A stretch of DNA of 64,000 bases from Escherichia coli (GTDB taxonomy: Bacteria > Pseudomonadota > Gammaproteobacteria > Enterobacterales > Enterobacteriaceae). The stretch lies in NCBI RefSeq assembly GCF_048403405.1, contig NZ_CP183129.1; one strand, 5' to 3'. The position numbers were made by a program. Shown here piece by piece: positions 11,201-14,200 of this stretch (its first letter is position 1; every line of letters begins with the position of its first letter).

Positions 11201-14200
11201 AGTAAAGATATGCTGGTTAAAATTTCCGTGACACCTGATGATGGACGTCAGTTAAAAGGGACACTGGAATCCCAGCCTTTACTTCCAGATAAGGCGTTTA
11301 TTGCCACACCACCATTATTGGTACTTAAACAAGATAAAAATACCAAAATAAGAATCAATCGCGTGGGGGGGCAGTTACCTATAGATCGTGAGAGTTTATT
11401 TATACTGAATATTGCAGCGTTACCTGCTCAGGAACAAAACTCACAGCTTAAGAATGAAAATCAACTCCAGGTGGCTGTACGTAATAGGATGAAAATATTT
11501 TACCGCCCAGAGACGTTATCAGGTAATCCACTTGACGCTTATCAACAGTTACGCTGGTCGCGAAACAATGAAGCTGTCACCGTTTTTAACCCTACGCCCT
11601 GGTATGTGACACTCTATAATTTATCTATTGATGGTAAAAGCATAAATGGTGGCATGGTTGCACCATTTAGTCATCGCCAACAGGATTGGTGTCAGCGGCA
11701 AGGATATTGTGAGATTAACTGGCAAACACTAGATCTTTACAATAATGCCTTACCCGTATGGAGCGTAAAATTAAATGTTTTACAAAATAATGCTATTATG
11801 GGTGCAGTAGCGATACATGGATAACTGGAGAAGCATGATGCTTACTTATTTTTGGGGGAATATAAAAGCAATTTGTATATTGTTTGTTCTTTTAGTCAGT
11901 AGCTGCTATAACATAGTATATGCTGAAGATATGGGACGGGATCGCGCCTTTTGTTATCCTGGTGCACCAGGTAATAATACTACTCCTGCGACATTTTCTT
12001 ATAATTTTGGTACGGTAATTGTCTCAGATGTTAATAATAATTCGCCTGGGACAGTATTACCCTCGCAGGACTGGAAAATAGGGCATTATAAGGCTTATTG
12101 TAATTCTCTGGATGATTATGAGGTTTATTTTTCTGGTGTTTCTGGGATTGATCCGTCAGGAGCGTCTGGTGATCATCAGGGGAGCGATATATTTATTCCT
12201 TTGACTCATGAAATATCTGTCTCGACACATGTAAAGCTCTATAATAAAAATGGCACAATGACAGATAAGGCAGTACCTTTTGACAACTATAGCACCAATT
12301 ATCCAGCAGACAGAAGTAAACCATCAAGTTGGGCCTCAGGAACAGAAGGTTATATAAAAATCAGACTTGATAAAAAAATAATATCCGATATCTCAATAAA
12401 TAACGTATTGCTGGTTTCTTTGTATGTCAGCCAGTTTCCAACAGAGCACGGACCAATTCCAGTATTTAATGCTTATATTGGCAACTTAAATATTGAAGTT
12501 CCACAAGGTTGCACAATTAATGAGGGAACTAGTTTTACCGTTAATATGCCGGATGTCTGGGCCAGCGAATTAAGTCGGGCTGGTGCTGGAGTAAAACCAA
12601 CAGGTATTTCTCCAGTGGCAACCACTATTCCGATAAATTGTACGAACAAAGATATTGATGCCGTAATGACGCTGGTTTTCGATGGCAATATTTCATCAAC
12701 GAGAGATGTTAATGGTCGGCAAAGCATTATTCAGGCGGAGGATAACCCCGACGTTGGCATTATGATTATGGATAGCCAACAGGAATCCGTAGACTTAAAT
12801 GCATTGGCTGCGCATGTTGGTGTGCCATTTAAGTTAGTTGAAAACCAGGCTGAGTCAGCTCAGACGGCAGATGTGACTTTTCTGTCTCTCCCTGTAAGTA
12901 CCACAGGGCGACGCCCTGCTGCAGGCCGTTATAATGCCCTGGCTGTTTTGCGGGTGGAATACCAATGATGTGTGAGTCAGTGCAGAATCGGATTAGCCCG
13001 TTTTTAGCCATCGGTAGGGTAAAGTTTGATGGAAAATATGGGTTATGTGCCGATGTATCCCACAATGAAATAACCCTCGAGGGAAAGGAATCAGCGCGAT
13101 GAACAAATTCACGGTGTTTTGCTGCTAGGTGTGGTATTTCTCGGCTTTATTATTGTACCGTTCTTGATATGGCCGACGGTGGTTGCGCTGGCTGCTTGTA
13201 TTATTACGCTGAGTTTTCTGGGGAGATACTGTTCTCTATCCCGCTCATGATCAGGCATATTTCACTTCTGGAATTACAACTTTGGTTATCGGTTGTATAT
13301 GCGCTTTGTCCATGCCGGATGCGACGTGAACGTCTTATTGGCCTACAAAATCATGCAAATTCAATATATTGCATAAACCACGTAGGCCTGATAAGCGTAG
13401 CGCATCAGGCAGTTTTTTTGTTTATCATCAGTCTCAGGTCAGATTGAAATCTGACCTGACCACCTTACGTTAAATCACGAAGCCAGCGATAACCTCTGCT
13501 GCGTATACTCCACTAGCCACTGACTCACACGAGATTGTTGATCCGCATTCAGCCACATGCCTTGTTTTGTGCGACGCCACAGGGCATCGTCGGCACGGCG
13601 GACCCATTCGTGATCCACCAGGTATTTCAGTTCCGCTTCGTAGAACTCATGACCGAAATCCTCCCCGAGGTCGCTTATCGCCCCCGCATTGCCGAGCAGC
13701 AGTTCGCTGTTGCTGCCGTAGGTGCGCGCGTAGTGACGTGCCAGCGATTCGGTCAGGAATGGGTAACGGCGGCGCAGGCGAGCGGCATAATCGTCGCGGT
13801 CGCCTTCAATGGCACCACCCGGCAGCACGCTCTCTTTCGTCCACGCCGGGCCAATACCCTGATAATATGGCGTCAGTTTTTCCAGCGCATGTTCCGCCAG
13901 TTTGCGGTAGGTCGTCAGCTTACCGCCGAATACCGACAGCAGCGGCGCTTTGCCGTTTTCATCATGGATATCAAGCGTGTAATCACGAGTAATAGCCTGC
14001 GGCGAGTCGGACTCATCATCACATAGCGGACGCACGCCGGAGTAGGTCCAGACGATATCGTCCCGGCTTAACTGCTTTTTAAAGTGCGTGTTATACACTT
14101 TCAGCAGGTAATTGATTTCACTCTCTTCAATCTTCACGGCTTTCGGATCACCTTTGTATTCCACATCGGTGGTGCCGATGATGGAAAACTCGTCCATCCA

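What the first reader, a model, noticed from the sequence alone, without database searches (positions are those of the whole stretch)
13099..13250. Candidate small membrane-protein gene disrupted at a T-tract
An ATG at 13099 with an AAGGAA Shine-Dalgarno 8 nt upstream opens a frame that stops after 9 codons (MNKFTVFCC*). The -1 frame from the same point encodes a markedly hydrophobic 43-residue peptide (LLLGVVFLGFIIVPFLIWPTVVALAACIITLSFLGRYCSLSRS). The frames diverge at the homopolymer gtgTTTTgc: one extra T would give an intact 50-aa small membrane protein. This could be a pseudogene, a homopolymer sequencing error, or slippage-prone phase variation. It lies at the glpD-proximal edge of the fimbrial block.
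Basis: seen in the sequence. Interest (0 to 1): 0.3.

Follow-up and report, generated by a model that had tools for sequence, protein, structure and literature searches.

The report
Decayed remnant of a deleted operon
The supposed broken small membrane-protein gene is the leftover of a three-gene E. coli operon that was mostly deleted beside a fimbrial gene cluster; it is an ordinary pseudogene, and the T-run is normal coding sequence, not the break point.

Summary
The window is E. coli: glgP, a 7-gene chaperone-usher fimbrial operon, this relic, REP elements, then glpD. About 3,700 of 5,426 complete E. coli genomes instead carry three genes between glgP and glpD: a 502-aa PstS-family protein, a 330-aa PstS-family lipoprotein, and a ~200-aa membrane protein. 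Window 13001-13308 is a collage of that operon. It holds the gene-1 tail, the spacer with the Shine-Dalgarno sequence, and gene-2 codons 1-11 (MNKFTGVLLLG). A ~992-bp deletion joins these to gene-3 codons ~11-69. A ~441-bp deletion at a TGCGCTTT microhomology then removes the rest. The first frameshift is a missing C in codon 5 (ACC to AC, between 13112 and 13113). The T4 run 4 nt downstream is native GGT GTT TTR, and intact gene-2 alleles also have T4. A second frameshift (G5 to G4, 13220-13223) lies inside the "43-aa ORF". All 227 genomes with the fimbrial operon carry the relic, and none matched the T5 query exactly. RefSeq already annotates a pseudogene here. Verdict: ordinary relic. It is neither phase-variable nor a sequencing error.

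The parts
13001..13073 (+). Decayed 3' tail of PstS-family gene 1 (502 aa in intact loci). In the native frame it ends ...GYVPMYPTMK* with stop TAA at 13071-13073.
   Evidence: blastn: window 13017-13097 is 87.7% identical to L004 2431-2511, E 6e-25. An independent 'distant' BLAST places window 13017-13130 on the junction of the two PstS-family genes in 890 genomes at 80-90% identity.
13074..13098 (+). Native gene-1/gene-2 spacer carrying the Shine-Dalgarno sequence AAGGA (13085-13089).
   Evidence: Intact loci have nearly the same spacer...CTCGAGAGAAAGGAATCAGCGCAATG.
13099..13131 (+). Codons 1-11 of PstS-family lipoprotein gene 2 (native MNKFTG/CVLLLGTALLAGC...). One C is missing from codon 5 (ACC to AC, between 13112 and 13113), which is frameshift 1. 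The run T4 at 13117-13120 is native GGT GTT TTR.
   Evidence: Window ATGAACAAATTCAC-GGTGTTTTGCTGCTAGGT against O157/ET350 ATGAATAAATTCACCGGTGTTTTACTATTAGGC: 27/31 identical with one 1-nt gap. In one search the records are 1 nt longer than the query over this stretch.
13132..13134 (+). Junction of deletion 1 (about 992 bp). It removes gene-2 codon 12 onward and the first ~10 codons of gene 3. Three nt (GTG) cannot be assigned to either side.
   Evidence: Composite-versus-window alignments against three intact loci each give a deleted length of 992 bp.
13135..13307 (+). Codons ~11-69 of the ~200-aa membrane-protein gene 3 (first transmembrane helix and the following loop). A 1-nt deletion in a G-run (G5 to G4, 13220-13223) is frameshift 2.
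   Evidence: blastx in two frames: 13134-13223 and 13214-13321 match O157 residues 12-41 and 39-74, at 83% and 75% identity, E 4e-20. Nucleotide identity to the ET350 allele is 159/173. PGAP annotates a pseudogene equivalent to window 13107-13321.
13300..13307 (+). TGCGCTTT microhomology at the junction of deletion 2 (441-442 bp). The deletion removes gene-3 codons ~70-200, the stop codon and about 50 bp downstream.
   Evidence: Intact loci carry ATATGCGCTTT inside gene 3 and GTGCGCTTTGT (O157/ET350: GGCGCTTTGT) downstream of it. The window has a single copy followed by the downstream sequence.
13309..13425 (.). REP/BIME repeats shared with intact loci. They are not part of the relic's coding history. 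The region includes a hit to Rfam ES036 (CssrF) at 13347-13389.
   Evidence: This part of the query matches at a median of 17 places per genome. Rfam hit: 43.6 bits against a gathering score of 37.6.
13434..13459 (.). Perfect 12-bp inverted repeat just past the glpD stop codon. I infer it is the glpD terminator hairpin.
   Evidence: the repeat finder I2, 100% complementary with a 2-nt loop.

Best explanation
Window 13001-13308 is a non-functional composite relic of a three-gene accessory operon. In most E. coli this operon occupies the glgP-glpD gap: a PstS-family protein of 502 aa, a PstS-family lipoprotein of 330 aa, and a ~200-aa Escherichia-restricted membrane protein. In the lineage with the 7-gene chaperone-usher fimbrial operon at this site, almost all of gene 1 is replaced by the fimbrial block. 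A ~992-bp deletion fused gene-2 codon 11 in frame to gene-3 codon ~11. A ~441-bp deletion between two TGCGCTTT copies removed the rest of gene 3. Two single-base deletions then broke the fused frame: a C in gene-2 codon 5, and a G in a G5 run in gene 3. The 'hydrophobic peptide' is the gene-2 signal-peptide core joined to gene-3 transmembrane helix 1. Shown: homology, colinearity, the indels, the junctions and population invariance. Inferred: the order of events, and that nothing useful is made beyond, at most, a 9-residue peptide.
For: Intact three-gene loci lie between glgP and glpD in O157:H7, FDAARGOS_1285, ET350 and ST131. Gene 3 is found in 3,689 of 5,426 genomes.

Window 13017-13097 is 87.7% identical to the gene-1 end plus spacer. 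BLAST maps 13017-13130 across both PstS-family genes in 890 genomes.

The start-codon region aligns to gene 2 with one missing C, and T4 is present in every intact allele examined.

blastx matches gene 3 in two frames, E 4e-20.

Composites built from intact loci align colinearly to 13000-13480 at about 88% identity, with indels of only 1 or 3 nt.

The TGCGCTTT repeat flanks the 441-bp deletion.

The relic is in 227 genomes and the fimbrial adhesin gene is also in 227. A T5 query gives no exact match.

Neither the 43-aa ORF nor the T5-repaired 50-aa ORF is among about 15 billion predicted proteins.

No promoter-like site lies in 12700-13600.

PGAP already calls a frameshifted, C-terminally incomplete pseudogene here.
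Against: The Shine-Dalgarno sequence and ATG are intact, and the relic sits directly downstream of the fimbrial operon. No strong terminator-like site was found between the fimbrial stop codon (12968) and the ATG. Read-through transcription and translation of the 9-codon ORF therefore cannot be excluded.

The relic is about 99% conserved among the 227 genomes. That fits recent common descent but does not by itself prove neutrality.

The nearest intact alleles are only 78-92% identical by segment. The exact ancestral sequence, the 3-nt junction filler and the order of events are therefore uncertain.
Confidence: 0.93

Rival explanations
1. A phase-variable small membrane-protein gene, switched on and off by slippage at the T-tract (T4 to T5).
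For: One extra T does join the ATG frame to the hydrophobic frame, giving a 50-codon ORF.
Against: The T5 query matched none of the 227 genomes exactly. All listed rows span the T4 length, and six fetched loci read T4. T4 is also the state in intact gene-2 alleles, where it is ordinary Val-Leu coding. From general knowledge of contingency loci, four bases is well below the tract lengths that slip at useful rates. The joined ORF would end in out-of-frame residues (GRYCSLSRS) because of the second frameshift. The T5-repaired protein is absent from about 15 billion predicted proteins.
Confidence: 0.01
2. A homopolymer sequencing or assembly error in an otherwise intact small gene.
For: Homopolymer indels are a common error type. 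No result from these tools supports this reading here.
Against: The same sequence occurs in 227 independently sequenced complete genomes and in three metagenome contigs. The lesion is not in the homopolymer. The locus carries two large deletions and a second frameshift that no single-base error could explain.
Confidence: 0.01
3. The relic keeps a residual role. Examples are translation of the 9-residue peptide MNKFTVFCC, a TTG-initiated 43-aa hydrophobic peptide, or service as a 3' untranslated region with REP stabiliser for the fimbrial mRNA.
For: The native Shine-Dalgarno sequence and ATG are intact. No strong terminator lies between the fimbrial stop codon and the ATG. REP elements follow the relic. 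The relic is invariably linked to the fimbrial operon, 227 of 227 by count.
Against: The linkage is explained by common descent. TTG at 13119 has no Shine-Dalgarno sequence upstream. The 43-aa ORF is not called anywhere in about 15 billion proteins. All its parts are explained as leftovers. No expression data could be consulted.
Confidence: 0.05

Closest known systems
RefSeq/PGAP pseudogene annotation at this locus (for example IMQ31_RS23730 in NZ_CP062824.1, AC0B5P_RS17315, RG27_RS26740)
   Same: Same DNA. It is annotated 'hypothetical protein; frameshifted; incomplete; missing C-terminus', equivalent to window 13107-13321.
   Different: PGAP recognises only the gene-3 homology. It does not record that the start codon and Shine-Dalgarno sequence belong to PstS-family gene 2, that a gene-1 tail lies upstream, or the two deletion junctions.
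yzgL pseudogene of E. coli K-12 (between glgP and glpD)
   Same: A relic of the same ancestral three-gene operon at the same chromosomal site, also produced by a large internal deletion.
   Different: K-12 keeps gene-1 codons 1-74 joined to the last ~20 codons of gene 3, and has no fimbrial operon. The window keeps the gene-1 tail, gene-2 codons 1-11 and gene-3 codons ~11-69, next to a fimbrial operon.
Intact ~200-aa 'hypothetical protein' gene 3 (WP_000981061.1 in O157:H7, WP_022646217.1, WP_137461605.1)
   Same: Window 13135-13307 encodes, across two frames, residues ~11-69 including the first transmembrane helix. Identity is 75-83% at protein level and 92% at DNA level.
   Different: The window lacks the native N-terminus and about 130 C-terminal residues, and the remaining part is frameshifted.
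   Same: Only the superficial feature of a reading frame that could be restored by a 1-nt change near a homopolymer.
   Different: The tract is only 4 nt, is invariant, is native coding sequence, and is not the site of the lesion.

Membership tests
Pseudogene / gene relic | Significant homology to intact full-length genes elsewhere | tested here: met
   blastx E 4e-20 to gene 3. blastn E 6e-25 to the gene-1 end plus spacer. 27/31 identity to the gene-2 start.
Pseudogene / gene relic | Same chromosomal position as the intact genes (synteny) | tested here: met
   Both the relic and the intact operon lie between glgP and glpD, with the same REP elements and glpD terminator downstream.
Pseudogene / gene relic | Disabling lesions (frameshifts, truncations) | tested here: met
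   Two 1-nt deletions (between 13112 and 13113; in 13220-13223) and two large deletions (about 992 bp and about 441 bp).
Pseudogene / gene relic | No functional product | not testable with these tools
   No expression data were available. The only indirect evidence is the absence of a promoter-like site and of any called ORF.
Phase-variable (contingency) gene with a homopolymer switch | Tract length varies among isolates | tested here: not met
   The T5 query matched none of 227 genomes exactly, and all listed rows span the T4 length. Six fetched loci read T4.
Phase-variable (contingency) gene with a homopolymer switch | The ON state encodes a complete, conserved protein | tested here: not met
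   The T5-repaired ORF would be a chimera ending in out-of-frame residues. It is absent from about 15 billion proteins.
Stand-alone small membrane protein gene | A conserved short ORF with its own start and stop in homologous loci | tested here: not met
   Homologous loci carry 330-aa and ~200-aa genes instead.
PstS-family lipoprotein gene (gene 2) | Signal peptide with lipobox followed by a PBP_like_2 domain | tested here: not met
   Only codons 1-11 remain. The lipobox (LLAGC) and the PF12849 domain seen in intact gene 2 are deleted.
~200-aa Escherichia membrane-protein family (gene 3) | Full-length ~196-201-aa ORF | tested here: not met
   Only residues ~11-69 are retained, split over two frames.

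The most novel reading that the evidence does not exclude
The relic is transcribed by read-through from the fimbrial operon and keeps a perfect Shine-Dalgarno sequence and ATG. It could then produce the 9-residue peptide MNKFTVFCC. It might rarely produce a signal-peptide/transmembrane chimera with some effect on fimbrial expression or envelope stress, which would be an early stage of new small-protein birth from operon wreckage.
Probability: 0.03. Interest if true: 0.3.

Novelty: already known. Interest (0 to 1): 0.07.

Why it matters
It matters little biologically, because this is an ordinary pseudogene that RefSeq already flags. The useful outcome is a corrected reading. A frame that can be restored near a short homopolymer is not evidence of phase variation. 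A hydrophobic "small ORF" beside an island can be the fused stump of a signal peptide and a transmembrane helix from deleted genes. The glgP-glpD gap emerges as a decay and replacement hot spot, with at least four states in E. coli: an intact three-gene operon, a variant with a different middle gene, the K-12 yzgL stump, and a fimbrial operon plus this relic.

Tried and rejected
1. My first model treated the relic as only the 5' third of gene 3 preceded by the gene-2 tail. I rejected it after blastn showed that 13017-13097 matches the gene-1 end and the gene-1/gene-2 spacer far better, E 6e-25 against 0.012.

2. The global MAFFT alignment of the window with EC16 was misaligned and was not used.

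3. Metagenome ORFs P0094 and P0099 (114-115 aa) have the same 3' junction but no frameshifts. They looked like evolutionary intermediates. No complete genome has that arrangement. The L009 N-terminus is identical to the intact ET350 allele and then switches to the window type, so they are probably chimeric assemblies.

4. Pfam and NCBIfam give nothing for gene 3. An exhaustive HMMER search of 1.84 billion representatives found only 39 hits, mostly fragments of the same family. The context of the most distant hit, P0119, was uninformative.

5. Literature searches for yzgL and for a fimbrial operon at glgP/glpD gave nothing specific. One paper lists glpD..glgP as a variable genomic region (PMC12928451). 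The E. coli 042 genome paper only counts its fimbrial operons (PMC2808357).

6. Translational slippage was considered. Reasoning from the sequence, tRNA-Phe on UUU (13117-13119) can re-pair +1 on UUU (13118-13120), but the hydrophobic frame needs a -1 shift onto GUU. The tract therefore does not favour the required direction.

Full report
**Observation.**
- ATG is at 13099, and AAGGA is at 13085-13089 with an 8-nt spacer after AAGGAA.
- The frame reads MNKFTVFCC and stops at TAG 13126-13128. TTTT is at 13117-13120.
- A TTG-initiated ORF at 13119-13250 encodes a 43-residue, strongly hydrophobic peptide (Kyte-Doolittle peak 2.56).
- The feature lies between the last gene of a fimbrial operon (11817-12968) and glpD (13475-14980, minus strand).

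**Context.** The window is E. coli.
- A 531-bp query around the finding is 100% identical to an O169:H41 chromosome.
- It is found over its whole length in 227 of 5,426 complete genomes.
- In those genomes the order is glgP, a seven-gene chaperone-usher fimbrial operon, a PGAP pseudogene, then glpD.
- The pseudogene is annotated [quoted passage not shown] and corresponds to window 13107-13321.
- The disruption is therefore already on record in RefSeq.

**What normally sits here.** Most E. coli carry three genes between glgP and glpD.
- Gene 1 is a 502-aa PstS-family protein: a PF12849 domain behind a hydrophobic N-terminal region.
- Gene 2 is a 330-aa PstS-family lipoprotein that starts MNKFTG/CVLLLGTALLAGC.
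- Gene 3 is a 199-201-aa "hypothetical protein" with hydrophobic segments.
- Gene 3 occurs in 3,689 of 5,426 genomes, in several alleles 78-100% identical to one another.
- Gene 3 has no Pfam or NCBIfam match.
- The named hits from the word-index protein search are all Escherichia.
- An exhaustive HMMER scan of 1.84 billion representatives returned only 39 hits, mostly fragments of the same family.

**Anatomy of the relic.** My first alignment suggested only the 5' third of gene 3. A more careful blastn corrected this.
- Window 13017-13097 is 87.7% identical (E 6e-25) to the last ~55 nt of gene 1 plus the gene-1/gene-2 spacer.
- An independent BLAST against all genomes maps window 13017-13130 across the boundary of the two PstS-family genes in 890 genomes.

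Base by base, the window reads ATGAACAAATTCAC-GGTGTTTTGCTGCTAGGT. O157/ET350 gene 2 reads ATGAATAAATTCACCGGTGTTTTACTATTAGGC.
- One C is missing from codon 5 (ACC), between window 13112 and 13113.
- The T4 run is the native GGT GTT TTR (Gly-Val-Leu), and every intact allele I examined also has T4.
- The "-1 frame" is therefore simply the true gene-2 frame, displaced by the lost C.

After ...CTAGGT (13131) the sequence switches to gene 3 at about codon 11 (TATTTCTCGGCTTT...).
- This implies a ~992-bp deletion.
- The deletion would have fused the two genes in frame: MNKFTGVLLLG-VV-FLGFIIVPFLIWPTVVALAACIITLSFLG...

Gene-3 homology continues to 13307 (159/173 nt identical to the ET350 allele).
- It changes frame at 13220-13223, where a G5 run in the closest intact allele has become G4.
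- blastx accordingly matches gene 3 in two frames: 13134-13223 and 13214-13321, E 4e-20.

Homology to gene 3 ends at ATATGCGCTTT (13297-13307), and the sequence continues with the DNA that normally lies about 50 bp past the gene-3 stop codon.
- Intact loci have TGCGCTTT or GCGCTTT at both places.
- The remaining ~130 codons were therefore lost in a 441-442-bp microhomology deletion.

Composites assembled from three intact loci using exactly these break points align colinearly to window 13000-13480 at about 88% identity, with indels of only 1 or 3 nt.

**Population test of the T-tract.**
- A 91-bp query across the start codon and fusion junction finds 227 genomes. Every listed row spans exactly 91 bases.
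- An 81-bp query carrying T5 finds the same 227 genomes. None reaches 100% identity, and all listed rows span 80 bases, which is the T4 length.
- Three complete genomes and three gut-metagenome contigs that I fetched all read T4.
- Neither the 43-aa ORF nor the T5-repaired 50-aa ORF exists among about 15 billion predicted proteins.
- The fimbrial adhesin gene is also present in exactly 227 genomes. By count, the relic and the fimbrial block are inherited together.

**Mechanism.** This is neutral wreckage.
- In the fimbrial-type lineage the fimbrial block replaces the operon from just after the glgP stop codon (homology with other loci ends at window 5298) to about 13000.
- Two deletions and two single-base losses account for everything else.
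- The order of events is inferred, not shown.
- No promoter-like site lies in 12700-13600, so any transcription would be read-through from the fimbrial operon.
- The intact Shine-Dalgarno sequence and ATG could at most give the 9-residue peptide.
- Reasoning from the sequence, ribosomal slippage on UUUU favours +1 re-pairing (UUU to UUU). It does not favour the -1 shift onto GUU that the hydrophobic frame would need.
- From general knowledge, four T residues is far below the tract lengths at which DNA or RNA polymerase slippage becomes appreciable.

**Comparison with known things.**
- The closest known object is the RefSeq pseudogene annotation of this same DNA.
- The nearest analogue is the K-12 pseudogene yzgL. 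It is a different stump of the same operon: gene-1 codons 1-74 joined to the last ~20 codons of gene 3.
- The relic fails every defining feature tested for a contingency locus and for a stand-alone small-protein gene.
- It meets all testable features of a gene relic.

**Leads that went nowhere.**
- Metagenome ORFs P0094 and P0099, with the same 3' junction but unbroken frames, looked like intermediates.
- They have no counterpart in complete genomes.
- L009 switches from an ET350-type to a window-type sequence within a shared stretch, so they are probably chimeric assemblies.
- Literature searches found nothing specific to this relic.

**Verdict.** "Pseudogene" is right. "Small membrane-protein gene", "disrupted at the T-tract", phase variation and sequencing error are wrong. 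The finding is ordinary and already annotated, so interest is low.

Noticed in passing
window 5299-12999 (genes 5774-12968): A seven-gene chaperone-usher fimbrial operon fills the glgP-glpD gap in 227 of 5,426 complete E. coli genomes, including EAEC 042. It replaces the PstS-type operon from just past the glgP stop codon. The 3' half of its adhesin gene is about 97.3% identical in most carriers, while the adjacent relic is about 99% identical.
   Followed up: partly
L010 1186-1460 (E. coli K-12 MG1655, glgP-glpD intergenic region): K-12 yzgL is codons 1-74 of PstS-family gene 1. About 60 nt after it comes the sequence encoding the last ~20 residues of gene 3 (...GEWGTCLSFVTLGMMAWALR*). It is therefore a second, independent deletion stump of the same operon.
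   Followed up: partly
L003 4169-4170 and 4381 (strain EC16; gene 3 at 3967-4567): In EC16-type alleles gene 3 is frameshifted by two homopolymer length changes relative to the intact FDAARGOS_1285 allele: T9 against T7, and T6 against T7. Two further complete genomes match the EC16 query at 100% identity. The parent gene thus has real or assembly-derived poly-T length differences in other strains, unlike the T4 in the window.
   Followed up: partly
L005 979-4107, L004, L015, L006 (intact glgP-glpD operons): The operon is uncharacterised. It encodes a 502-aa protein with a multi-pass hydrophobic N-terminus plus a PstS-like domain, a PstS-like lipoprotein, and an orphan ~200-aa membrane protein restricted to Escherichia (39 hits in 1.84 billion representatives). 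ST131-type strains have an unrelated 255-aa hypothetical gene in place of the lipoprotein gene.
   Followed up: partly
window 13347-13389 (+): A hit to Rfam ES036 (CssrF sRNA) scores above the gathering threshold (43.6 against 37.6 bits) inside the REP/BIME cluster between the relic and glpD. A weak, sub-threshold naRNA4 match lies at 13385-13461 (-).
   Followed up: no
L008 and L009 (metagenome contigs), proteins P0094 and P0099: ORFs of 114-115 aa read from a native gene-3 start through the same deletion junction into the REP region. They are absent from all complete genomes, and their sequences switch allele type mid-gene, so they are likely chimeric metagenome assemblies.
   Followed up: yes
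window 17128-18726 (-) versus L001 13179-14773: PGAP marks rtcR as frameshifted in the otherwise near-identical O169:H41 genome, whereas the window has an uninterrupted 532-aa ORF at the corresponding position.
   Followed up: no
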